Source: a virus. Taken from it: a DNA stretch of 64,000 bases. The notes beneath the pieces were generated by a model that searched no databases, was not told the origin of the DNA, and worked only from the letters and a program-made list of their open reading frames with translations. The stretch lies in IMG/VR virus record IMGVR_UViG_3300037104_000756, positions 1 through 64,000 of that record, one strand, 5' to 3'. This document shows, piece by piece, positions 4,448 through 46,782 of the stretch; position 1 is the first letter of the stretch, and each line of letters opens with the position of its first letter. The translations under genes were made by a program, and so were the position numbers.

Positions 4448-4523
4448 ATTCGGTTATTCCTTTCACCAGAACCCCGAATTTAAGGGGGTTATGATACAAA
4501 GTATTGCAAGTAAGGAGCCTGAC

Positions 4524-4946
4524 ATGAGCAGCAGTGAAATCCCCGTGAGTGCGGCGGCATCGCCGTTTACGACAGAGACCACCCCCAATATTGAGCGTGC
4601 GAATAGACTCATCAGTCTGCGCAGCAACCCCGGATTCCGTGATTTGATTCGTCTGTCGCTGGAGATTGTGCAGTCGGCAGCCGATATTTGCGCAGATTAT
4701 CCTGGCTGGGATGCACAACAAATAACGGTTCTAAAAGTACGCATGCAGTGCGCGAAAGAACATCACGCGCTTCTCTTAAATAAAGTCCAAGAAGCCATCG
4801 AGACTGGCAAACAAGAGGCAATTGCGCAGGCTCCAACTCTACCCGCCAAGACTGCTTCAGATATGGTAGACCAAGGGGATTACGTGCGCCAGCAGGTACT
4901 CCAGCAATTCGATGAGATGGAATCGCGTCCCGCTGGATCATATTAA
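4524..4946 (+). CDS. Hypothetical head-module protein
   Basis: SD TAAGGAG before ATG 4524; helical protein between portal and scaffold. Confidence 0.7.
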   Translation: MSSSEIPVSAAASPFTTETTPNIERANRLISLRSNPGFRDLIRLSLEIVQSAADICADYPGWDAQQITVLKVRMQCAKEHHALLLNKVQEAIETGKQEAIAQAPTLPAKTASDMVDQGDYVRQQVLQQFDEMESRPAGSY

Positions 4947-9582: not shown

Positions 9583-10014
9583 ATGATCCACCCTGATAGA
9601 AGGTTTGGACCTCATCCAGAACGAGGTCTCGCAATCAGCCTAGCGAAAAAAGGATTGGCGCAGATTAAAGGACGTATTCACCCTGACCGTGTTCTTACGG
9701 GTGCAGAAAAGAACGCGCGTCATCGTGCAAAACATCCTCGCACTGTCGAATTTCGGCGCGAAGAGCATGCAAACTATCAACGTGCATTCATCGCTGCCAA
9801 AACGCAACAGTATGAGAAACAAAAAGGTCTGTGTACCCTATGTCATACATCTTTGCCAGAATTGGAAAAATGTCACTGGGATCATGACCACAACACTGGC
9901 AAAATGCGAGACGTTTTGCATCGACGATGCAACATTGCTTTAGGTTATATTGAAGATGAACTTTACCCCCTAGCTCTTGATTATTTGGAGATGCACACCC
10001 ATGACGCCGATTAA
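9583..10014 (+). CDS. Endonuclease VII-like homing endonuclease
   Basis: QKGLCTLC…DHDHNTGKMRDVLHRRCNIALG. Confidence 0.85.
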   Translation: MIHPDRRFGPHPERGLAISLAKKGLAQIKGRIHPDRVLTGAEKNARHRAKHPRTVEFRREEHANYQRAFIAAKTQQYEKQKGLCTLCHTSLPELEKCHWDHDHNTGKMRDVLHRRCNIALGYIEDELYPLALDYLEMHTHDAD

Positions 10015-11205: not shown

Positions 11206-14200
11206 GTGGCAGAAGATACCCCAGTTACTCCAGCGGCACCTCCGATACCGGACTCGATTCCGATTACGGACCCAACTGTGTCTGCATCAATTCCAATTGA
11301 CCCAGACACCGCTGCGATCTACGACCCCGCCAAAGACAAGAGGGCTCCATTCCTCAAGGTGAATCTGCATCCAACGGGACCGACTATTGAGGAAGCACAT
11401 AAACCTTTACTGCAGCGAGCCAAAGAAGCCATCACGGAGAATATTCCTAACTATTCGTCCCGAACTGTCTACGATCCCAAGTACGGTAAAGAATCTTTTC
11501 TCCCCGATTCAGATGTTATGACGAGCCAGGAGCGGCGCGAACATCCCGTCGTTGCAGGGGCGCTCGATGCCGCTAGTGGTTTGGCAACTCCCGCCACGCT
11601 CGCGACCGTTGCGGCGACTGCAGGAGTAGGCGAAGCGGGACTCATTCCCAAAGTGTTGTCGGGTCTTTTCGCAGGTCAAATTGCTGTAGGAGTGTACGAC
11701 CAGTATCCTGCATTAAAAGCGGCGGTAGATAAAGCCCAGCACGCAAAGACGACGCAAGAACATGACGACGCGTTTGCCGAAGCGCAACAACTATTGACGC
11801 ACATGGGCGCGGATACCGTTATGGGTTTGTTGGCTGCGAAGCACGGCGCGGAAGGCGCGAAAGAGATTTTGGACTCGACTACGGGCAGCGGCGTGCCCGA
11901 CCAAGCATCAACGTTTAAGGCTCCGCAAGGACCTGCGGCTCCCGAACCTGAAGAGACACACCCCGAAATGAATCGGGATACGGTTAAGTCGCTCCAGAAG
12001 TTAGGATACTCCAACCAACACATTACCAATTTCAATATCTCCGAAATCCGCGACATTCTGAAAAATAATACTCCTGCGGTTGATCATCCCGTATCCAAAC
12101 CCGCTGGTCCCGACCCTGATGCATTTGCTGCGTCTGGCGGTAAGTTGGTGGGTCCGACTCCGACAAAAGCGGCATCCGCCGCTGCCGCGCCAGAAGCAAA
12201 AATTACCACCGACAGTAATGGAACTAAATGGGCTGAGAACGAGAACGGCGTCCGTGTTTCTATTCCGCAGCGCATCCCTGAAGCGCAAGTCCAAGAGTAC
12301 GCCGCTACACAACTTGATTCACAAGCTAAGATGCAGGCGGACGCCAAGGCGAAAGTCGCGAACGCAGCGGACCCCATCGAAGACCTTCTCATGTCCGACA
12401 AGATTCAAGGCAAGAAAGTTCGCGGTGCAACTCCAAAACCTACCGAGATTCCTGCGCAGCAAGGGCGACGGGCGGGAGTGGGAGGCGTTAACCGCACACT
12501 TCCTGAAGACAGTAGTTTTGCCTTCAGGGCGAGAAGCACGGACAAACTCCCCTATGACAGCACCAGCAATGGCGGGGATATGGGGCGCGGCGGTAAAGCG
12601 TGGCTCAATACCGATGGGACTTTTGACCCTCAAGATGAAGTCCATAAGAATGGGCTTGAAAATCTTGCCAAAGGAAATATCCGAATCGGAAATTTAGAGC
12701 GTGACGGGAGTGTTCTCTTCCATGCAAATGACGTTCCTACCGAAGCGCAACGTGCGGCAATCGGAAAAGACATCGCCAAGCAGGGAGTGATTTACGATTT
12801 GACCAATAAGAGCGGTGAGCGCATTTCGGGTGAGACAGATAAACCAGGAGAATTCTGGCGCGCTGTCGATAAATTTTATGGCGTTGGACCCCAGCCCGAC
12901 GCCTTCGCATCATCGGGCGGCAAGTTTGTAGGAAAAACGCCTGAGCCAGCCGCACCCGCTGTCACTTATCATCCAGATTTGCAAAAAGTCATAGACCTTC
13001 CAGGTGTGACGGTTCACCAAAACGCATCGCAGGTTACTGGCGCAGCACATTTCGTGACACCCGATGGGAAATTCGTGCGCTTGCCTAGAGGGCTAGGGCA
13101 TCCTGAAGCTGTCGCAAAAGCGGTCGGTGGGGCTGCGTACGACCCTGATAATCGTGTTCGATTTCTAAATGACACAGGTGCGCTGCGTATTCGTCCCTCG
13201 ACAGGGAAGGCGGGAGAAACATTGCATGTTTCAGTTCCTGCAGGTGGCGTGACGCCTGAACAAGTGGACGCACTACAGCGATCCGTGCAGGCTATGGGTA
13301 AAAACGGCAATCTGGTTTTGGAACGCGCAGATATCAACGCCGAAAACAAAGACACCGCCAGCACCACTATCGAGCAGGTGAAACCATATCAAGTAGAAGA
13401 CGCGTTGAAAAAAATCGGAGCGCATCCAGAACAAGCGGGTCTTGTCACCAGTGAACTGCAAACTCCACATAAAGAAACATACGAAATGGAAATCACAGAT
13501 CGCGTAGGCGACACCAATACGGACGGGGAGGTTCATACCGAAAAAATTGACGCGCACTCCCCCAAGCAAGCGATAGCTCTTGCGCAAAAGAAATTCCCAG
13601 ATGCACATCAATGGCGCTTGGCTACCATGCCTGAAGAGAAGGCACTGTCAACTGAATATTCCGTCCCGACGAAGAACCTCGCCACAATGCCTGCATCCGC
13701 AGACCGCCCTGTGGTTCACACTATCCGCCACGAACTTGGACATGCCTTGGTCGGACAGAATGAAGGCATGGGCGTGAAAGCGATGATTAGCTCGACTCAC
13801 CCTAAAGGCGGGAGGAACATGCGGGCGGCGGTTGATTGGGACGCGACGGGTGTGTTTAATTTTAATGGACACCCATACCCCGAAAAAATTCCCATGCTTG
13901 TTCGCACATTCATGGGTGGCATAGCTGCAGATGAAGTTTTCAATGATCTGCCGCGCAGCACCAATCACAATTTCAACATCGCGACTCGCGGTTCGGATGG
14001 TCAACGGGCGTATAGCTTTCTGCGGGCGGAAGGCGTCAGTCACGAACAGGCGTTTGATTATATGCACCAAGCGATAGAAGACGGGAAAGCGTATTTGGCA
14101 AAGCCTGAAGTTTCTGATATCATCAAAGAGAACGCGAATGTTCGAGAAGCAGGGCTGTCTCGGCAGTACCACTACAGTCCCGAAAGATTGCAAAATATGC

Positions 14201-17200
14201 ATGCGGAAGCTCAAAGGAGAATTCAAAATGGAGCCGAACAGCCTAACAACGGAGCAATTAATGGACAAGCTGCTGGAGGACGCGAAACAGCAGACACCCG
14301 AGGAGAAAGCGGAAGTGCGCAAGGCACTGGCGAAGGCGTTCCCGCAGAAGAAGGTATAGTCTCGGAAGAAAAATCCAGAAGCCCCCAAAAACCTGCAAAA
14401 TTAAAACAAAACCCACCTGTAGGGTATATCACCCCGGCAGGGAAATTTGATCCATTCCAGAAGGGCGAGACCTCCCACATGGAAGCCGCCCATCGTTTGA
14501 TGGGCTATGGCGATCCTCAAAAATCCCTTGATGTTGACGCCTTCGATGAGGTACTAAAGGCGGGGTATGTGCGTAAAGCCGGACAAGGGTCCTATGATAT
14601 TCGTGGAGAACTGAATCCACAAACCAAAGCAGCCCTTGAGCACGATATTCTCTTAGATTCCCGCGATCTTAAAACGGGAGGTAAATATAAGCATCCCGCC
14701 AATATCGTCATCGAAAATGACGATGATGGTTACGAATTTTCAGTAGACGACTTCATCGACAAGTACAACGGCAGTCTTGATAAGGCGATGAACGCCGAGC
14801 GCACATTGACTACGGCTGAAGTCAAGAAACCTGCAGCCATGACGCCTAAGATTGCGCAGCAGATTGTTGATGCGCACACTGCCAACGGTGGCTCTACCTT
14901 CAACCTTCACCAAGGCGACTTAGCAGGCACTGATAACTACGCGGTAGCGGCACATCCCGAACGCGGAGAAGTTTTGGATCATCAGCCGACCACCAAAGAT
15001 ATTCAAGCGTTTGCCAAAAAGAACGCAGACCTGTTGAAGGACCCAGAAAAGAGTATCGGCACTTGGCACGACACCTCGAACGATACGCACGCGCTCGATG
15101 TCGTCGCGACGATGCCCGACCGCGAGAAAGCTATCGCGCTAGGAAAAGCGAACGACCAAAAAGCTATCTTCGGCTTGAAAAACAACGAAGAAATCAACAC
15201 AGGTGGAACTGGCGCAGTGCCTGTCGGCGGTACCGCCGCCGCGCCCGCAGCACCAGCCGCGCCGCCCGAGAGCGCCGATATTCCGACAGTCAGCACCCGC
15301 GTACCTTCGCGCAAAGTCAAGGGTGTAGATGTCGAAGACCACACCAATCAGGCGCTCACATCTGACATGGACGCTGCTAAAGCCGCGCCTGGGTACATGC
15401 AGAAGATGGTGGATAAGATCATTGCTACTCCAGGTTTCAAGGCTCCCGAGGGAGGCGACGCGCAAGCGATTGCCGAAGCATATATTCGGCACGTTGCGGA
15501 CAATACGAAATTCGTGTTCAACAAATTGAAGCCCGAGAACGTCAAGAAAGACGAGCAGTGGTATCCTGTTGGCGCGCATCAGCGCGGTCTCGAAGTCGCG
15601 AAGCAGCATGGATACACTCCCGCGCAAATATTCGGCGTCACGTCAGTGGAATCTCCCATGACCGACTGGGATGCAAATACCGCGATGGCGGAACGCACTG
15701 CCAGCATCTGGAAGAACCAACAGAAGACCAAATTCACTCCTGAAATGCGTCAAGCGGCGGATGATATTCTCACTGTGCCCGCCATGGGGAAATTTAAAAC
15801 ACTCTTCAAGGGTTTAGAGGGAAAGACGCTGGCTGAACTCCCAAACATCGAAGATAAGGCATGGTGGCTGCGGCTATATGACGAGGGACACAACCCACGC
15901 TCATATCAGACCTGGAATCCTGACGGGACCTCGGGAGGATTCGCGAAAAACATCGATGGGGTGACCAATAAAAACCTCGGATGGAGTTTCCAGAACCACA
16001 TTCAAAAAGCGATCTCCATTCTACAGGACGGATCGCCCGAGAACATTAGCGCGAGTTTGGGCTATGGACACAAGGTTCGCAACTTCTATAATAACCAACT
16101 CGCGCCAGATGACCCGCGATATTTGACCATCGACACCCACGCGGTTAACATTGCGCAGTTGCGCCCGATGTCAGGAAAGAATCCTGGCGTCACATCAAAT
16201 TTCGGCACGATCAGTAATGGACCGCACGGATTAAGCGGTGTTTACCCTTTGCACGATGCTGGGTATCGATTGGCTGCAAAAGAGCTTGGCATTTCAATCC
16301 CGAGTAGACTACAATCACCTACATGGGTAGAAATTCGCAATGTCTTTACGGACGATTTCAAAACGAAGGAAAATCTTGCATCGATAGATGCAATATGGAA
16401 GGAACATTCCGATGGAAAAATCACAGCCGACGACGCCCGCAACAAAATCTGGGACTTCGCAGAGCGATGGAACCGTGAAAATACTGGAAAGACTGGGAGT
16501 ACCAGTGACCAGGGAAAACTATTTGATGCTGGCGTTCGCGGGACATCCACCAAAGGAACTGGATCAGGAAATCGAGGAGCAACTCCCGCGCCAGTTTCGA
16601 AACCAGAAGTAGACGAGGGCGACACCTCATTTGACTTCGGGGCGAATGAACCAGAGCGCATCGCGCCCGCGCGTGTAAAATCCAACGTTCCGAAGATGAC
16701 AGGAGAGGGTTTAATTAAAGCGCTCCATGGTCTTAATAAACCCAGTGGGAAAATTCCAACAAAGTTTCGTCAAAACCTCAATGCCGCCGAAAGCATGAGT
16801 GATCCAGATACGCGGTTCAATACCGCGCAGCATGAAGCAGGACATGTAGTGATTAGCGAGATGTTGCGCCCCGGGGCTGTTCAGGGTGTTGGGTTGGATG
16901 ACTCGGGAGGATACACCAACATAGCGCCGCCAGCGGGGAAAACAGAAGCCAGTCAGCTTTCTCCAGAGGAAATCCGAAATCTCGTCGCGGTGAGTTACGC
17001 GGGCGGGATGGTAGAGCCAGGAGGAACCACCGCCAAGCATGTCGGACCAGATCAAGCGCGACGGGCAGACATATTAGGGGGTGGCGCGGTATCGACGATG
17101 TCTAATATTGGTCGTTTGATAACGGGTCATACTCTTGGTACTGACCAAATGCTACAGGCGAATCAACAACAGGCTGAAGCAAAGGCGCGCGTGACCGCAC

Positions 17201-17310
17201 TGCTTGCCGACCCTGCTGTTCGCCAGAACATCAATACCTTGGCAACGCACATCACAACGAGGGGGCATCTCTCAGGCGACGAAATCCGTAGCGTGCTAAA
17301 GAAGCCTTGA
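11206..17310 (+). CDS. Giant polyvalent (probably virion-packaged) multidomain protein
   Basis: 2034 aa; two M41/FtsH-like zincin domains (HELGH at 13729, HEAGH at 16831), an HhH-GPD glycosylase-like domain (GHKVRNF…TIDTH), three copies of a [YFW]-h-x-P/T-D/A-G-x-F…H…G-x-h-R module, and low-complexity linkers. Confidence 0.85.
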   Translation: MAEDTPVTPAAPPIPDSIPITDPTVSASIPIDPDTAAIYDPAKDKRAPFLKVNLHPTGPTIEEAHKPLLQRAKEAITENIPNYSSRTVYDPKYGKESFLPDSDVMTSQERREHPVVAGALDAASGLATPATLATVAATAGVGEAGLIPKVLSGLFAGQIAVGVYDQYPALKAAVDKAQHAKTTQEHDDAFAEAQQLLTHMGADTVMGLLAAKHGAEGAKEILDSTTGSGVPDQASTFKAPQGPAAPEPEETHPEMNRDTVKSLQKLGYSNQHITNFNISEIRDILKNNTPAVDHPVSKPAGPDPDAFAASGGKLVGPTPTKAASAAAAPEAKITTDSNGTKWAENENGVRVSIPQRIPEAQVQEYAATQLDSQAKMQADAKAKVANAADPIEDLLMSDKIQGKKVRGATPKPTEIPAQQGRRAGVGGVNRTLPEDSSFAFRARSTDKLPYDSTSNGGDMGRGGKAWLNTDGTFDPQDEVHKNGLENLAKGNIRIGNLERDGSVLFHANDVPTEAQRAAIGKDIAKQGVIYDLTNKSGERISGETDKPGEFWRAVDKFYGVGPQPDAFASSGGKFVGKTPEPAAPAVTYHPDLQKVIDLPGVTVHQNASQVTGAAHFVTPDGKFVRLPRGLGHPEAVAKAVGGAAYDPDNRVRFLNDTGALRIRPSTGKAGETLHVSVPAGGVTPEQVDALQRSVQAMGKNGNLVLERADINAENKDTASTTIEQVKPYQVEDALKKIGAHPEQAGLVTSELQTPHKETYEMEITDRVGDTNTDGEVHTEKIDAHSPKQAIALAQKKFPDAHQWRLATMPEEKALSTEYSVPTKNLATMPASADRPVVHTIRHELGHALVGQNEGMGVKAMISSTHPKGGRNMRAAVDWDATGVFNFNGHPYPEKIPMLVRTFMGGIAADEVFNDLPRSTNHNFNIATRGSDGQRAYSFLRAEGVSHEQAFDYMHQAIEDGKAYLAKPEVSDIIKENANVREAGLSRQYHYSPERLQNMHAEAQRRIQNGAEQPNNGAINGQAAGGRETADTRGESGSAQGTGEGVPAEEGIVSEEKSRSPQKPAKLKQNPPVGYITPAGKFDPFQKGETSHMEAAHRLMGYGDPQKSLDVDAFDEVLKAGYVRKAGQGSYDIRGELNPQTKAALEHDILLDSRDLKTGGKYKHPANIVIENDDDGYEFSVDDFIDKYNGSLDKAMNAERTLTTAEVKKPAAMTPKIAQQIVDAHTANGGSTFNLHQGDLAGTDNYAVAAHPERGEVLDHQPTTKDIQAFAKKNADLLKDPEKSIGTWHDTSNDTHALDVVATMPDREKAIALGKANDQKAIFGLKNNEEINTGGTGAVPVGGTAAAPAAPAAPPESADIPTVSTRVPSRKVKGVDVEDHTNQALTSDMDAAKAAPGYMQKMVDKIIATPGFKAPEGGDAQAIAEAYIRHVADNTKFVFNKLKPENVKKDEQWYPVGAHQRGLEVAKQHGYTPAQIFGVTSVESPMTDWDANTAMAERTASIWKNQQKTKFTPEMRQAADDILTVPAMGKFKTLFKGLEGKTLAELPNIEDKAWWLRLYDEGHNPRSYQTWNPDGTSGGFAKNIDGVTNKNLGWSFQNHIQKAISILQDGSPENISASLGYGHKVRNFYNNQLAPDDPRYLTIDTHAVNIAQLRPMSGKNPGVTSNFGTISNGPHGLSGVYPLHDAGYRLAAKELGISIPSRLQSPTWVEIRNVFTDDFKTKENLASIDAIWKEHSDGKITADDARNKIWDFAERWNRENTGKTGSTSDQGKLFDAGVRGTSTKGTGSGNRGATPAPVSKPEVDEGDTSFDFGANEPERIAPARVKSNVPKMTGEGLIKALHGLNKPSGKIPTKFRQNLNAAESMSDPDTRFNTAQHEAGHVVISEMLRPGAVQGVGLDDSGGYTNIAPPAGKTEASQLSPEEIRNLVAVSYAGGMVEPGGTTAKHVGPDQARRADILGGGAVSTMSNIGRLITGHTLGTDQMLQANQQQAEAKARVTALLADPAVRQNINTLATHITTRGHLSGDEIRSVLKKP
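14228..14359 (+). CDS. Nested +1-frame small protein (43 aa) inside the giant gene
   Basis: SD AAAGGAG directly upstream of the ATG; helical sequence MEPNSLTTEQLMDKLLEDAKQQTPEEKAEVRKALAKAFPQKKV. Confidence 0.6.
   Translation: MEPNSLTTEQLMDKLLEDAKQQTPEEKAEVRKALAKAFPQKKV
16412..16612 (+). CDS. Nested +1-frame small protein (66 aa) inside the giant gene
   Basis: SD GGAAGGA before ATG; globular-looking core ILERLGVPVTRENYLMLAFAGHPPKELDQEIEEQLP. Confidence 0.65.
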   Translation: MEKSQPTTPATKSGTSQSDGTVKILERLGVPVTRENYLMLAFAGHPPKELDQEIEEQLPRQFRNQK

Positions 17311-17342: not shown

Positions 17343-17864
17343 ATGAGTGCCGTTAAACCCAAAGCTGCTCGCAAGCCAGTCACCGCCGAAGCTAAACTCA
17401 TCCTGCAAGACAAAAGACTTCAGAAGAAGTATGGCATTACTCTGGAAGAGCGCGACAAAAGGATTTACGAACAAGAAGGATTGTGTGCAATTTGCGGCGG
17501 CGCGCTCGACGCGTACGGACCCCCGAACGTGGATCACTTCCATTTCTTTGTCCAAGCCGTTCGCGAGACAGACCAACGGCTGCTGGCGCTGGGGTTGAAA
17601 TGGATTGCGATATCTTATGACGAGAGACGGAATTCGGTGTATTCCCGATACGCTAAAACCAAAGAGTCTGCTATCGCGAGTGTGAAAGACGCAACGAAAG
17701 CGTGGTCGGTGCGGGGCATTCTTTGCTTCAAATGTAATCGTGGCCTGGGCTCCATCGAGAAGTTTTTTAACGCCGCGCACCAACCTGGAAATCTCCTCCC
17801 TGTGATCGATTATTTACGGGCTCGATTAAAAACACTTGACAAACCGACAGACTTTAAACTATAG
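17343..17864 (+). CDS. Endonuclease VII-like homing endonuclease with internal insertion
   Basis: KKYGITLEE…QEGLCAICGG…VDHFH, about 55 extra residues, then VRGILCFKCNRGLG; promoter TTGACG-17-TACACT. Confidence 0.8.
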   Translation: MSAVKPKAARKPVTAEAKLILQDKRLQKKYGITLEERDKRIYEQEGLCAICGGALDAYGPPNVDHFHFFVQAVRETDQRLLALGLKWIAISYDERRNSVYSRYAKTKESAIASVKDATKAWSVRGILCFKCNRGLGSIEKFFNAAHQPGNLLPVIDYLRARLKTLDKPTDFKL

Positions 17865-34687: not shown

Positions 34688-34956
34688 AAGCGGCGGTTGC
34701 GTATACGTTTCCTGAAGAACGTGGCGTCTGTGGTTTCTGCGGAGACGCGGAGGGTGGGTACGCTAAACGCAAAGACGGGCAATGGCAAGCGGCATGTTGG
34801 AAGTGTGTTAAGCCTGAGACCGCAGGAGCGACTCAATCGAAACGTAAATTGGTCGGCACGATATACACCGACGTTGACGCGGACGTGGTTGAACCGGCAA
34901 CAAAGAAAAAGAATCCTGGGATGGCACCGAGCACGAATCGACCGAGGACAGCATGA
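34678..34956 (+). CDS. Small Zn-ribbon protein
   Basis: CGFC…CWKC. Confidence 0.6.
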   Translation: MALEAAVAYTFPEERGVCGFCGDAEGGYAKRKDGQWQAACWKCVKPETAGATQSKRKLVGTIYTDVDADVVEPATKKKNPGMAPSTNRPRTA

Positions 34957-35615
34957 AGATCATCGAACCTAGTTTTGAAATTCTGGATTTGACATGCAGA
35001 GAAGACGGTGTTAAACTACTTCGTCGGGTTGAATACCTTGCGAGAATCTCCCATCGCAGCGAAGACAAGCAAACAGAGGACTCATGGCAGAGGTTTGTTA
35101 CGGCGGTTGTCTTGCAACATGGTGATTGGTCTGTAGTGGAACATTGTATCGTCACCGTGGTGGCTCGCGTCGACCGAGGAGTTACTCATGAGTGGGTCCG
35201 AGATCGGATCGGAAGCTACACCCAAGAGTCGACAAGGTTCGTGAATCACGGAAATAAAGATATTGAATTCATCAAGCCGTCTTTTGCGGGAGATGATCCT
35301 GTTGCGGCGAGCGCGGCATGGAACGCGGAGATGTGGAGAGCAGAGCAAGCGTATAGAGAACAGCTTGAGATGGGACAGTCACCTCAGATAGCACGTTCTG
35401 TGTTGCCGAATGCGACGGCTTCGACGATTGCCGTGACGTATAATTTACGGCAATGGAGAAAATTTTTCATGAGTCGAGTTTGTAGGGAGGTTCACCCAGA
35501 TTTTAGACGGACGACGATTCCACTCCTACAAAAATTTAAGGAGTTGATTCCGATTCTGTACAGCGATATAATACCAGAAGAAAAACAAAGCATCTCATTT
35601 TCGAGGCCGCGATGA
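34953..35615 (+). CDS. thyX: FAD-dependent thymidylate synthase
   Basis: H..WSVVEH…RGVTHEWVRDRIGSYTQESTRF…ARSVLPNA…NLRQW. Confidence 0.9.
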   Translation: MKIIEPSFEILDLTCREDGVKLLRRVEYLARISHRSEDKQTEDSWQRFVTAVVLQHGDWSVVEHCIVTVVARVDRGVTHEWVRDRIGSYTQESTRFVNHGNKDIEFIKPSFAGDDPVAASAAWNAEMWRAEQAYREQLEMGQSPQIARSVLPNATASTIAVTYNLRQWRKFFMSRVCREVHPDFRRTTIPLLQKFKELIPILYSDIIPEEKQSISFSRPR

Positions 35616-36049
35616 CGGGCGCGGAACGTAGCCGCAAATGGCGTCGAGATCATCCTGGGTACTACACCATGTATTTGAAACGATACGGGCCTAAATGGCG
35701 GGTGAAACTGAAGCAAAAAGGTTTGTGTGTTCGGTGCGGAAAAAGAAAGGTTTTAAAGTGGACTACTTGCAGTGAATGTAAAGAATATCACAAGACAGTG
35801 TCGCCCACAATTCGAGCGATTCGTAAAGAGGACCGCCCACTGGCATTACGACGATCTAAAAAGGCCAAGAGGTGTTGTTGTTGCGGCTCTCGGACGCATA
35901 ACGGTCGGGGATGGCACATTGACCACGATCACAAAACCAAGAAGTTTCGGGGAATTTTGTGTAACAACTGCAACCTTGGCCTGGGTCACTTTAAAGATAG
36001 CGTTCAAAGGTTATCACAGGCAATTAAATATTTGGAGATCATGTCATGA
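35612..36049 (+). CDS. Endonuclease VII-like homing endonuclease
   Basis: WHIDHDHKTKKFRGILCNNCNLGLG. Confidence 0.88.
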   Translation: MTGAERSRKWRRDHPGYYTMYLKRYGPKWRVKLKQKGLCVRCGKRKVLKWTTCSECKEYHKTVSPTIRAIRKEDRPLALRRSKKAKRCCCCGSRTHNGRGWHIDHDHKTKKFRGILCNNCNLGLGHFKDSVQRLSQAIKYLEIMS

Positions 36050-45255: not shown

Positions 45256-46782
45256 ATGTCTACACAGAATCCTATTTACTCAAACCAGAACTGGCGTCCG
45301 TTGAAAGTTCGCGACAGTTTCCAGTTTGTTCGCGGCAATATCTCAGGGTTTGCGCACACGGGTAGTGAATCAGGCACGTTGGGTGTTATCGGACCTAACA
45401 GCACTCCTGGCGCGCACCCTGACGTTCCGTTTGTGATCGGCGTCTACTCCGCTTATGGCGCAGCGGCACAGCCTGGAAATCTGCGGGCGGTTGACTCTGA
45501 ACTTCTCTTTAATTATCCAGGGAGCACCTCAATTACGGTGAACCCGACAGGTATTGACGGCACTCCCACAACGCCGAATACGGCATCCTCAAGTATCGTA
45601 GCCGTACGCGGCGCGATCACCATCGGCGGTATCTATACAGGCGCGACGGCAGGAACAGGTACTGCGGTCGTAGACCCATCACGCACGACCCCCACAACTA
45701 TCGTGGGCTCGTCCTATCTTTACGGGGTGCAGGGTAAGGTTGTGCTCAACGGCGGTCTCGCCAATACAGGAGGGAACGGCATCATCGTTACCGGACTGCA
45801 AGGGCAACTCGACATTTCACACACTACCGTCATTTCAAGTCCCCTGACCGCAGGCTGGTTTGATATCGGCGCATCGGCATCGGCGGCTCTTATCGCTTCG
45901 TGGGTTCCAGGTTCTGCTACTGGACTTGACGCTCAACTTGGCGTGGCAGCAAAATATGGTATCCTTGCCGCTGCGGGAATCACAAACACAGGCTCTACGG
46001 TAGTCGCTGCTCCTGCGGTTATTGGTTCTTTCCCAACTACAACGATTACGTTTGACGGCGGCACCGCGACGGTGGACAACATTGACGCGGCGGCAGCCCA
46101 AGTGGCTGCGCACGCGGCTTACCTTCACTACTCTGGATTGGCGTTCACTTCTCTGGGCGGCGCTCTGGACCTATCCACCGCCTTCAGCGGGTCCAACATC
46201 GTCACTCCCGGGAACTACAGTTTCGGTGCGGCAACCTGCTCCTTGGGTCTCGTCCTGAACGGACCTGGAACATACATCTTCAAGGGTTCTTCAACGATCA
46301 ATTTGGCTTCTGGTCAGTCCATAACTTTTTCGGGTGGCGCAACGTTGGCTAACACCACTGTTATTTGGTTGGTGGGGTCGTCCTTCACTTCCGTGGCGAC
46401 TTCGAACATGGTCGGGACTATTCTTGCGGACACATCCATCACCCTCGAGGGCGGCACTCTTCAGGGGCGCGCGTTTGCGGGCGTCGTGACTAGCTCGGGA
46501 GCAGTTACTATCGCTGCCGCAAACAACGTGACGGTTTCTTTTAGTCCGCCGACACCCGCGACAGGCGGACCGACATTTATCGACATCACCACGCTGTACA
46601 ACACGACGGCTGCGGTTATCAACTCAGCCTTCCGTATTATCTCGAATTCGACCTTTCTCTTTGATCTGAGCAGCAACTCAGGCAGCCCATGGCTGACCAC
46701 TGGAGTTTTGTCCAGTCAGACGAAGAAAATAGCTGTGAACGTAGACGGAGTGACATACTACATTCCACTATACGCAGCCTAA
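45256..46782 (+). CDS. Virion fibre/spike-like protein, paralog 2, with inserted DUF3494 ice-binding-like domain
   Basis: Insert at about 45937-46536: YGILAAAGITNTGSTVV…AAAAQ…TPGNY…YIFK…VIWLVGSS…GTILADTSITL…LQGRAFA…GAVT. Confidence 0.8.
   Translation: MSTQNPIYSNQNWRPLKVRDSFQFVRGNISGFAHTGSESGTLGVIGPNSTPGAHPDVPFVIGVYSAYGAAAQPGNLRAVDSELLFNYPGSTSITVNPTGIDGTPTTPNTASSSIVAVRGAITIGGIYTGATAGTGTAVVDPSRTTPTTIVGSSYLYGVQGKVVLNGGLANTGGNGIIVTGLQGQLDISHTTVISSPLTAGWFDIGASASAALIASWVPGSATGLDAQLGVAAKYGILAAAGITNTGSTVVAAPAVIGSFPTTTITFDGGTATVDNIDAAAAQVAAHAAYLHYSGLAFTSLGGALDLSTAFSGSNIVTPGNYSFGAATCSLGLVLNGPGTYIFKGSSTINLASGQSITFSGGATLANTTVIWLVGSSFTSVATSNMVGTILADTSITLEGGTLQGRAFAGVVTSSGAVTIAAANNVTVSFSPPTPATGGPTFIDITTLYNTTAAVINSAFRIISNSTFLFDLSSNSGSPWLTTGVLSSQTKKIAVNVDGVTYYIPLYAA

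What the first reader, a model, noticed from the sequence alone, without database searches (positions are those of the whole stretch)
11206..17310. Polyvalent protein built from effector domains with overprinted partner genes: candidate new system
Seen: one 2034-aa ORF strings together a G/A-rich hydrophobic N-terminus, three repeats of a small His-containing module, an M41/FtsH-like zincin (HELGH…GGIAADE…GSD), an HhH-GPD glycosylase-like domain (Lys in GHKV and Asp in IDTH, as in EndoIII-family enzymes) and a second M41-like zincin (HEAGH). Two of the enzymatic domains are immediately followed by a +1-frame small ORF with its own SD (14228 and 16412). The main frame turns into a G/S/T/E low-complexity linker over those same stretches. 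Established: phage polyvalent proteins are thought to be delivered with the DNA, and toxin genes are commonly followed by immunity genes. Inference: each domain plus hidden inhibitor is a self-contained cassette that can be shuffled within a giant ORF without breaking it, keeping the effector silent in the producing cell but active after injection. Standard annotation would miss these genes.
Basis: partly seen in the sequence, partly recalled or inferred. Interest (0 to 1): 0.88.

Follow-up and report, generated by a model that had tools for sequence, protein, structure and literature searches.

The report
Two partner genes nested in giant phage gene
A 2034-codon phage virion gene carries two real, conserved small genes written one base out of frame inside its floppy linkers; one is predicted to cap the active site of the DNA-glycosylase-like domain encoded just upstream, an enzyme-plus-partner layout that standard annotation misses.

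Summary
ORF 11206-17310 (2034 aa) is a mosaic polyvalent virion-module protein. Its first HExxH domain models as an FtsH/M41-type protease domain (Z 13.8-8.2). Its DUF7178 domain models as an HhH-GPD DNA-glycosylase fold (top 22 hits, Z 9.7-4.5) with an invariant EndoIII-like Lys/Asp pair.

Both +1-frame ORFs are real genes, shown by comparison, not by the window alone: codon shuffles give as many +1 ORFs.
- ORF-B (16412-16612) belongs to an uncurated, mostly acidic small-protein family (1868 cluster representatives).
- It follows a DUF7178 domain in 76/77 loci found through ORF-B, and in 72/80 loci found through DUF7178 (67 in +1, 5 in +2, 0 in frame).
- It has a conserved SD+ATG.
- Codon periodicity switches to its frame only at the two nested ORFs.
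- A complex model puts it over the Lys/Asp cleft (ipSAE 0.88; best control 0.00).
- ORF-A (14228-14359) is conserved likewise in 13 loci, but its partner is unproven.

An inhibitor or immunity role is inferred, not shown. A docking or subunit role remains open, because ORF-B-like modules also head some effector proteins.

This scan has reported the same layout on other phage DNA. I found no published description.

The parts
11206..17310 (+). Giant polyvalent-type ORF (2034 aa) at the end of the head module
   Evidence: Terminase, portal and major head genes lie upstream. Mosaic homologues of 1489-2163 aa occur in 8 viral contigs. Related DUF7178-bearing giants carry LPD38 and RadC/JAB domains.
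11542..11715 (+). G/A-rich hydrophobic N-terminal segment (aa 113-170)
   Evidence: Read from the translation. Not tested further.
12112..12165 (+). Linker motif PDAFAASGGKLVG (first copy). Candidate processing site (inference).
   Evidence: Regex hit at aa 307. The same motif recurs between modules in L002, L007 and L008.
12892..12948 (+). Linker motif PDAFASSGGKFVG (second copy)
   Evidence: Regex hit at aa 567.
14410..14805 (+). 'xITP(D/A)GKF...His' module (third copy). Earlier copies are near aa 466 and aa 616.
   Evidence: Motif hits. 45.7% identical to a module placed elsewhere in L002, which is module shuffling.
13666..14226 (+). ZINC1: FtsH/M41-like metalloprotease domain (HELGH, GGIAADE, GSD)
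   Evidence: Alignment A5: H22, E23, H26, G84, G85 and D111 are invariant. Model pLDDT 90.5. FtsH-family hits Z 13.8-8.2. Foldseek probability 1.00.
14213..14219 (+). Shine-Dalgarno AAAGGAG of ORF-A, made from the main-frame Arg codons AGG AGA
   Evidence: AGGAGAAT is conserved in 8 of 9 ORF-A copies.
14228..14359 (+). ORF-A: nested +1-frame gene, 43 aa (core TTEQL...MSPEEKAE...KKK)
   Evidence: Conserved in the +1 frame in 13 viral loci, with two tandem copies in L007. Identity 50.2% against 33.6% for the main frame, in 36 of 36 pairs. Diversity by its own codon positions is 0.43/0.29/0.49. 14 small proteins are called elsewhere at E<1e-3.
15283..16410 (+). DUF7178 domain: HhH-GPD DNA-glycosylase-like fold. 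Invariant Lys1623 (nt 16072-16074) and Asp1643 (nt 16132-16134).
   Evidence: Pfam PF23802. Alignment A3 invariants. Model pLDDT 90.4. Top 22 structural hits are HhH-GPD enzymes.
16397..16403 (+). Shine-Dalgarno-like GGAAGGA of ORF-B
   Evidence: An SD (GAGGAGG, AGGAG or AGGA) lies about 3-8 nt before the ATG in most relatives.
16412..16612 (+). ORF-B: nested +1-frame gene, 66 aa (core DGTVKILERLGVPVTRENYLMLAFAGHPP..LD.EIE..LP)
   Evidence: Predicted to bind the DUF7178 cleft.
16726..17307 (+). C-terminal HEAGH region (ZINC2), unconfirmed second zincin
   Evidence: HExxH at aa 1876. No Pfam or PDB sequence match, and hhalign to ZINC1 gives probability 5%. Absent from L002, L007 and L008.

Best explanation
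The giant gene encodes a polyvalent protein of the head module: a string of shuffled modules joined by disordered linkers. Two linkers double as complete small genes, read one base out of frame from their own SD+ATG.

ORF-B is the dedicated partner of the HhH-GPD glycosylase-like DUF7178 domain encoded just upstream. It is made as a separate, usually acidic, small protein. It docks onto the conserved cleft that holds the EndoIII-like Lys/Asp pair. It most likely keeps the enzyme blocked in the producing cell until the large protein is packaged or released.

ORF-A is a small, slightly basic helical protein of the same functional class. It usually sits behind the FtsH/M41-like protease domain and probably restrains that protease. 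I know of two precedents, lambda CIII and SpoVM, which are small peptides that inhibit FtsH. That resemblance is from my own knowledge and was not tested here.

Nesting keeps each partner gene with its domain when modules are shuffled, without interrupting the long frame.

Shown here: the genes are real, the linkage is conserved, initiation is separate, and the folds are as stated. Predicted: binding of ORF-B to DUF7178. Inferred: inhibition, and delivery of the large protein into the host.
For: Real family. ORF-B relatives are called as small proteins elsewhere. The profile finds 1868 cluster representatives at E<=1e-3 and 514 at E<=1e-10, nearly all 45-190 aa.

Linkage:
- A DUF7178 domain ends 0-100 nt upstream in most of the 76/77 loci found through ORF-B.
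- 72/80 loci found through DUF7178 motifs have ORF-B downstream: 67 in +1, 5 in +2, 0 in frame; 55 nested and 17 adjacent.

Coding signature:
- Over the same nucleotides, pairwise identity is 56.7% in the ORF-B frame against 35.8% in the main frame. ORF-B is higher in 99.1% of 780 pairs.
- Diversity by ORF-B codon position is 0.355/0.251/0.524. So the main frame's third position is the least variable there. The upstream domain shows the normal main-frame pattern, 0.284/0.240/0.584.
- A sliding scan over 8 giant homologues flags this signature clearly only at aa ~997-1045 and ~1741-1800.
- ORF-A: 50.2% against 33.6%, in 36 of 36 pairs.

Separate initiation. SD+ATG is conserved. In some loci a stop codon lies directly before the ATG. 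Adjacent, non-nested forms exist.

Enzyme. HhH-GPD fold, with invariant K264 and D284 20 residues apart.

Binding. ipSAE 0.88 against a best control of 0.00. That mark was reached by 58 of 80 solved complexes and 2 of 110 mismatched pairs. Runs agree in at least 66% of contacts, and partner pLDDT is at least 73. The interface includes residues 260-262, 264-265 and 285.

Other support. The ORF-B family is acidic, with median net charge -5. Stand-alone and arrayed copies away from DUF7178 resemble orphan immunity genes. ZINC1 has the FtsH protease fold.
Against: - No expression, binding or activity data exist.
- The complex score is a model's own confidence and used my own alignments.
- The window's own ORF-B is charge-neutral by my hand count of the sequence.
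- ORF-B-like modules sit at the N-terminus of larger effector proteins: P0030 (756 aa), P0031 (832 aa, with ADP-ribosyltransferase-family Pfam hits; a source names it 2'-5' RNA ligase) and P0034 (364 aa, Zeta-toxin family). An inhibitor has no obvious reason to be fused there.
- ORF-A follows a non-protease module in L090-L094. No ORF-A complex could be modelled here.
- CRP-738 (L004) and zth2-2 (L006) show no significant ORF-B match downstream of the domain.
- The glycosylase Z-scores (under 10) are moderate for a helical fold.
Confidence: 0.5

Rival explanations
1. The nested proteins are real partners but not inhibitors. They are docking or assembly modules. An ORF-B module clamps onto the DUF7178 domain to tether a separate polypeptide to the packaged polyvalent protein. 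That polypeptide is either nothing more than a cap or, when fused, a cargo effector. Alternatively the module acts as a required subunit or folding chaperone.
For: ORF-B-like modules form the extreme N-terminus of effector proteins P0030, P0031 and P0034. Binding is predicted. Linkage is strict. Some proteins hold two ORF-B stretches, or ORF-A-like and ORF-B-like modules together.
Against: Most family members are 45-190 aa with no cargo. The predicted interface covers the invariant Lys/Asp cleft rather than a neutral surface. A required subunit would be expected to fuse in frame at least sometimes, but 0 of 72 do. Copies occur in genomes with no DUF7178 within 4 kb.
Confidence: 0.27
2. The +1 segments are reached by programmed +1 ribosomal frameshifting. 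This gives truncated polyvalent proteins with alternative C-termini, not separate small proteins.
For: The +1 frame is open upstream of the ATG in several loci, up to 175 codons. AAA-A runs lie just upstream in the window.
Against: SD+ATG is conserved at the head of the conserved core in most loci. In several loci a stop codon directly precedes the ATG. In 17 of 72 loci the DUF7178 gene ends before or within ORF-B. Stand-alone small proteins with unrelated N-termini exist. Five loci use the +2 frame instead. The extra upstream open stretch is not conserved as protein.
Confidence: 0.05
3. The nested ORFs are relics. They were once separate genes, were overrun when neighbouring genes fused, and are no longer expressed. 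Or the conservation reflects a nucleotide-level constraint.
For: The count of +1 ORFs in the window is what codon shuffles give. There is no expression evidence.
Against: Purifying selection in the +1 frame persists across relatives down to 37% ORF-B identity, with the wobble position of the +1 frame the most variable. Start, SD and stop are retained in dozens of independent assemblies.
Confidence: 0.05

Closest known systems
Rz/Rz1 two-component spanin genes of phage lambda and relatives (PMC6139136, PMC5295617)
   Same: A small gene lies out of frame inside a larger gene (+1 frame, as I recall for lambda Rz1). The two products bind each other. The same pair occurs as embedded, overlapped and separated architectures; here it is 55 nested and 17 adjacent or partly overlapping. 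Annotation often misses the small gene.
   Different: The proteins and their function are unrelated: lysis there, a virion polyvalent enzyme and its partner here. Here the host frame over the overlap is only a disordered linker of a multi-domain protein. There are two different nested genes in one ORF, and the pair moves as a cassette between architectures.
Polyvalent proteins of phages and conjugative elements (Iyer et al. 2017, PMC5512222)
   Same: A giant multi-domain protein in the virion module with zincin-like metallopeptidase domains proposed to process it. Module order is mosaic. Related DUF7178-bearing giants carry LPD38 and RadC/JAB.
   Different: A term search of that paper found no 'overlapping', 'frameshift' or 'glycosylase'. 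The DUF7178 domain as an HhH-GPD fold and the two small-protein families are not described there.
Polymorphic toxin / immunity pairs, including phage MuF toxins (PMC5576092)
   Same: An enzymatic effector domain on a phage head-associated protein, followed immediately by a small cognate gene. Orphan and arrayed copies of the small gene occur elsewhere.
   Different: There the immunity gene lies downstream of a C-terminal toxin and is not overprinted. Here the long frame reads on through it. Neither toxicity nor protection has been shown here.
Small acidic phage inhibitors of DNA glycosylases: Ugi of PBS1/2 (my own knowledge) and p56 of phi29 (PMC2018632)
   Same: A small, mostly acidic phage protein predicted to occupy the DNA-binding or active-site cleft of a DNA glycosylase-type fold.
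   Different: Ugi and p56 target the host's UDG, which has a different fold. ORF-B would target the phage's own HhH-GPD-like domain. No sequence relation was found.
Endonuclease III / OGG / AGOG HhH-GPD glycosylases, and QNG1 (DUF2419)
   Same: Fold match: Tm1821 Z 9.7, rmsd 3.7 over 184 aa; QNG1 Z 8.3; EndoIII 2abk Z 6.2. The motif GxGHKVRNFYNN...T(I/V)DTHA resembles EndoIII's GVGRKTANVV...VDTH, with Lys and Asp about 20 apart. The EndoIII motif is from my own knowledge.
   Different: No sequence-level match to any solved structure. There is an extra N-terminal helical region of about 70 aa. Substrate and activity are unknown.

Membership tests
Peptidase M41 (FtsH-type) protease domain - ZINC1 | HExxH zinc site plus a downstream third ligand in the FtsH protease-domain fold | tested here: met
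   HELGH, GG(I)AADE and D111 are invariant in A5. Structural matches to FtsH, FtsHi and YME1 protease domains have Z 13.8-8.2 over nearly the whole model and Foldseek probability 1.00.
Peptidase M41 (FtsH-type) protease domain - ZINC1 | Sequence membership (Pfam Peptidase_M41) and fusion to an AAA+ ATPase | tested here: not met
   No Pfam hit at E<=1. No PDB sequence hit. No AAA+ module in the ORF. So it is FtsH-like in fold, not a member of the curated family.
HhH-GPD DNA glycosylase superfamily - DUF7178 domain | Helical two-lobe fold with a helix-hairpin-helix followed by a loop and a catalytic Asp | tested here: met
   The top 22 VIA hits are all HhH-GPD enzymes or QNG1, Z 9.7-4.5, then unrelated folds at Z about 4 and below. 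Foldseek's best probabilities are OGG1 and AGOG, 0.51 and 0.41. Z under 10 is moderate for a helical fold.
HhH-GPD DNA glycosylase superfamily - DUF7178 domain | Catalytic Asp, and Lys for bifunctional enzymes, at equivalent positions | tested here: inconclusive
   K264 and D284 are invariant in 28 sequences and 20 residues apart, in a GHK...DTH context. Residue-level superposition on EndoIII K120/D138 was not available.
HhH-GPD DNA glycosylase superfamily - DUF7178 domain | N-glycosylase or AP-lyase activity on DNA | not testable with these tools
   Needs an enzyme assay.
Polyvalent proteins (Iyer et al. 2017) | Many unrelated effector domains in one polypeptide of a phage or conjugative element, including zincin-like MPTase, in a virion or transfer context | tested here: met
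   At least two enzymatic folds plus repeated modules in 2034 aa. The head-module context is shown. Relatives carry LPD38 and RadC.
Embedded (out-of-frame nested) phage genes, Rz1-type architecture | Complete gene with its own start inside another gene's frame, conserved as protein | tested here: met
Toxin-immunity / enzyme-inhibitor pair | The small protein binds and neutralises the adjacent enzyme | tested here: inconclusive
   Binding is supported by a model only: ipSAE 0.88, best control 0.00, a mark reached by 58 of 80 solved and 2 of 110 mismatched pairs, contact agreement at least 66%, partner pLDDT at least 73. Neutralisation was not testable.

The most novel reading that the evidence does not exclude
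Polyvalent phage proteins carry a hidden second layer of genes. Dedicated inhibitor genes are overprinted on the linkers behind their enzyme domains. ORF-B would be a new family of protein inhibitors of HhH-GPD glycosylases, and ORF-A an inhibitor of an FtsH-type protease domain. They would silence the effectors in the producer cell and travel with their domains when modules shuffle. Hosts and resident mobile elements would keep orphan copies and arrays of the same modules as protection against incoming virion effectors.
Probability: 0.35. Interest if true: 0.85.

Novelty: new variant of a known kind. Interest (0 to 1): 0.72.

Why it matters
- It shows that the 'linkers' of giant phage proteins can hide complete, widely conserved genes that gene callers skip inside long ORFs. 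That matters for annotating thousands of viral contigs: at least 577 viral contigs carry DUF7178.
- It gives DUF7178 a concrete, testable identity: an EndoIII-like glycosylase fold carried by a virion-module protein.
- It names a large uncurated small-protein family as its partner. If that family is inhibitory, it would be a first protein inhibitor class for HhH-GPD enzymes, of possible use as a tool in the way Ugi is for UDG.
- It offers a simple explanation of how effector-partner pairs survive domain shuffling in polyvalent proteins.

Tried and rejected
Contexts of the database proteins P0003-P0037 could therefore be examined only through related loci.
- Megablast of the gene against the phage collection found nothing.
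- Pfam and PHROGs give nothing for ORF-A or ORF-B. ESM Atlas gave no usable hit.
- The DUF7178 profile has no sequence match among solved structures, and neither zincin region does.
- hhalign of ZINC2 to ZINC1 gave probability 5%.
- blastp of the protein against itself listed no internal repeat.
- The 205-aa +1 ORF at 12080-12697 and the other alternative-frame ORFs show no conserved +1 signature. One borderline window at aa 481 lies in saturated alignment. I rejected these as genes.
- The weak ORF-B-like stretch in phage LS06-2018-MD07 (L005 4040-4159, E 0.015 in a tiny database) was left undecided.
- The motif AD(R/L)xF(L)RxxG(I/V) was not found in any locus held at that point, L001-L096 and the window.
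- No RNA holder is listed among sequencing runs.
- Laid contigs show only that the same DNA, without indels, is present in a second peat study.
- A search for the contexts of P0030 in viral contigs gave only partial relatives.
- No paper mentions DUF7178.

Full report
**What is there.** The window is part of a 98-kb IMG/VR virus record that is 98% complete. DNA of this phage is held by peat metagenomes from more than one study. ORF 11206-17310 (+) is open for 2034 codons. It lies behind the terminase, portal and major-head genes and before the replication genes. Pfam and PHROGs recognise only DUF7178 (PF23802, phrog_3842) near aa 1410-1712.

Homologous giant ORFs of 1489-2163 aa exist in other viral contigs. 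They are mosaic. The same modules occur in different order and number. For example, the 'GWVRKAGQGSY...VDDFIDKYNG' module is at aa ~1113-1195 here and at ~478-560 in L002. More distant DUF7178-bearing giants also carry LPD38 and RadC/JAB domains. So the protein belongs to the polyvalent proteins of Iyer et al. 2017 (PMC5512222).

- ZINC1 (aa 821-1007; HELGH, GGIAADE, GSD) was modelled from 8 sequences at pLDDT 90.5. Its eight best structural matches are all FtsH, FtsHi or YME1 protease domains. Z is 13.8-8.2 over almost the whole model, and Foldseek probability is 1.00. It is FtsH-like in fold but is not a sequence member of Pfam M41 and has no AAA+ module.
- The DUF7178 domain (aa 1360-1735) was modelled from 28 sequences at pLDDT 90.4. 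Its 22 best matches are all HhH-GPD glycosylases or the related QNG1: Tm1821 OGG Z 9.7 (rmsd 3.7 over 184 aa), QNG1 Z 8.3, then AGOG, OGG1, MagIII, EndoIII and MutY. Unrelated folds appear only at Z about 4 and below.
- Lys264 and Asp284 of the domain (Lys1623 and Asp1643 of the protein) are invariant and 20 residues apart, in 'GHKVRNFYNN...T(I/V)DTHA'. By my own knowledge this resembles EndoIII's 'GVGRKTANVV...VDTH' (K120, D138). Activity is untested.
- The C-terminal HEAGH region could not be confirmed as a zincin.
- The three 'His modules' are motif-level repeats.

**The nested ORFs in the window alone are not remarkable.** There are seven +1-frame ATG-ORFs of 43 aa or more in the gene. Synonymous-codon shuffles give 7.7 +/- 1.8. 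The case rests on comparison with relatives.

**ORF-B (16412-16612, 66 aa).**
- Six small database proteins share its core 'DGTVKILExLGIPVTRENYLMLAFAGHPP..LDGEIE..LP'. Some have unrelated N-termini.
- A motif scan found 77 viral loci. In most of these 77 loci (about 65) the relative lies one base out of frame inside a long ORF of 585-3945 aa. In the rest it is a separate gene.
- In 76 of the 77 loci a DUF7178 domain lies upstream, in most ending 0-100 nt before it. The exception is cut by the contig end.
- The reverse test used loci chosen by DUF7178 motifs only. At least 577 viral contigs match, and the best 80 were fetched. Of these, 72 have an ORF-B-like segment within 450 nt downstream: 67 in +1, 5 in +2 and none in frame. 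55 are fully nested and 17 are adjacent or partly overlapping.
- Over identical nucleotides, mean pairwise identity is 56.7% in the ORF-B frame and 35.8% in the main frame. ORF-B is higher in 99.1% of 780 pairs. The recurrent main-frame 'GNxGEL' is just the shadow of 'VTRENYL'.
- Nucleotide diversity by ORF-B codon position is 0.355/0.251/0.524. So the main frame's third position is the least variable there. The upstream domain shows the normal main-frame pattern, 0.284/0.240/0.584.
- An SD about 3-8 nt before an ATG heads the conserved core in most loci, for example 'GAGGAGGcacgcaATG'. In some loci a stop codon directly precedes the ATG. This argues for separate initiation rather than frameshifting.
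- The family profile finds 1868 cluster representatives at E<=1e-3 and 514 at E<=1e-10, nearly all 45-190 aa. It is absent from Pfam and PHROGs.
- The family is mostly acidic, with median net charge -5.

**ORF-A (14228-14359, 43 aa).**
- Relatives sit in the +1 frame of giant ORFs in 13 viral loci. Most lie directly behind ZINC1, with a conserved 'AGGAGAAT' SD built from main-frame Arg codons. L007 has two tandem copies.
- Identity is 50.2% in its frame against 33.6% in the main frame, in 36 of 36 pairs. Diversity by its codon positions is 0.43/0.29/0.49.
- Fourteen small database proteins match at E<1e-3.
- In L090-L094 it follows a different module, while the junction 'MHAEAQRRI' is kept. 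So its partner is not settled.

**An unbiased scan.** I ran a sliding scan of codon-position diversity along the whole giant ORF in 8 homologues. It flags the +1 signature clearly only at aa ~997-1045 and ~1741-1800, which are the two nested ORFs. One borderline window at aa 481 lies in saturated alignment. The 205-aa +1 ORF at 12080 shows nothing.

**Binding.** I modelled the DUF7178 domain (A3) with ORF-B (A4).
- The score was ipSAE 0.88 (three runs: 0.89, 0.88, 0.88), against a best control of 0.00.
- In the tool's calibration this mark was reached by 58 of 80 solved complexes and 2 of 110 mismatched pairs. The counts hold only roughly here because I supplied my own alignments.
- Runs agree in at least 66% of contacts, and partner pLDDT is at least 73.
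- The confident interface includes domain residues 125-126, 234-238, 260-262, 264-265, 285 and 303-309. That covers invariant positions, including the putative catalytic Lys and the residue next to the Asp.
- This supports binding over the active-site cleft. It does not show it.

**What complicates the inhibitor reading.**
- ORF-B-like modules also form the N-terminus of larger effector proteins: P0030 (756 aa), P0031 (832 aa, with ADP-ribosyltransferase-family Pfam hits; a source names it 2'-5' RNA ligase) and P0034 (364 aa, Zeta-toxin family).
- Small multi-module proteins (P0027, P0028, P0032) combine ORF-A-like and ORF-B-like modules with zinc ribbons and a repeated '(S/A)D..FL(R/K)..G(I/V)' motif.
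- A soil contig (L195) has four such genes in a row, away from any DUF7178.
- Acidobacteriota MAGs carry stand-alone copies, one 3.2 kb from an integrase gene.
- These forms fit orphan or arrayed immunity genes, but also docking modules. They do show that ORF-A and ORF-B belong to one functional class.

**Verdict.** The nested genes are real, separately initiated and tied to their domains. ORF-B is predicted to cap the glycosylase-like cleft. Inhibition, injection and toxicity are inferences.

The closest known architecture is Rz1 embedded in Rz. That pair has the same embedded, overlapped and separated spectrum (PMC6139136). The closest known logic is toxin plus downstream immunity gene, as in MuF toxins (PMC5576092). 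A term search of the polyvalent-protein paper found neither 'overlapping' nor 'frameshift'.

Earlier notes of this scan report the same layout in other phage genomes. I reached the same reading independently. I add the reverse-association count, the absence of in-frame fusions, the effector-headed forms and the arrays.

Noticed in passing
L195:112-2379 (metagenome contig Ga0302326_10089122): Four consecutive small genes are built from ORF-B-like and ORF-A-like modules, zinc ribbons and a repeated '(S/A)D..FL(R/K)..G(I/V)' motif at their ends. No DUF7178 or zincin gene was seen among the listed ORFs of the contig (ORF list read only, no domain scan). Proteins P0027, P0028 and P0032 are of the same kind. 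This may be an array of orphan partner or immunity modules.
   Followed up: partly
L178:4031-4261 and L179 (Terriglobia MAG, two chromosomal copies): A stand-alone ORF-B-like gene ends in 'TRADRRWLRKMGV'. It sits in a run of small genes about 3.2 kb from a phage-integrase gene, with no DUF7178 within 4 kb.
   Followed up: partly
window 9583-10014, 17343-17864, 35612-36049: Three Endonuclease VII/HNH-type genes. The second lies just after the giant gene and the first about 1.2 kb before it. They may be homing endonucleases.
   Followed up: no
window 12112-12165, 12892-12948, ~16609-16650: Short motifs recur between modules here and in relatives: PDAFAxSGGK(L/F)VG and DEGDTSFDFGAN. They are candidate cleavage sites for the embedded protease.
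   Followed up: no
window 16466-16551: A contig from a third peat study shares only the ORF-B core at about 87% DNA identity, and its flanks are unlike the window. The core therefore circulates in other contexts.
   Followed up: no
window 45256-46782: A 508-aa protein has an Ice-binding-like (PF11999) insert, next to a paralogue-sized neighbour. This agrees with an earlier first-reader note.
   Followed up: no
window 34953-35615: A ThyX (Thy1) homologue. This could bear on base modification and so on what the glycosylase-like domain spares or attacks.
   Followed up: no
L007:4334-4468 and 4472-4588: Two tandem ORF-A genes lie in the +1 frame of one giant ORF, separated by a stop and 3 nt. The nested gene has been duplicated in place.
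   Followed up: partly
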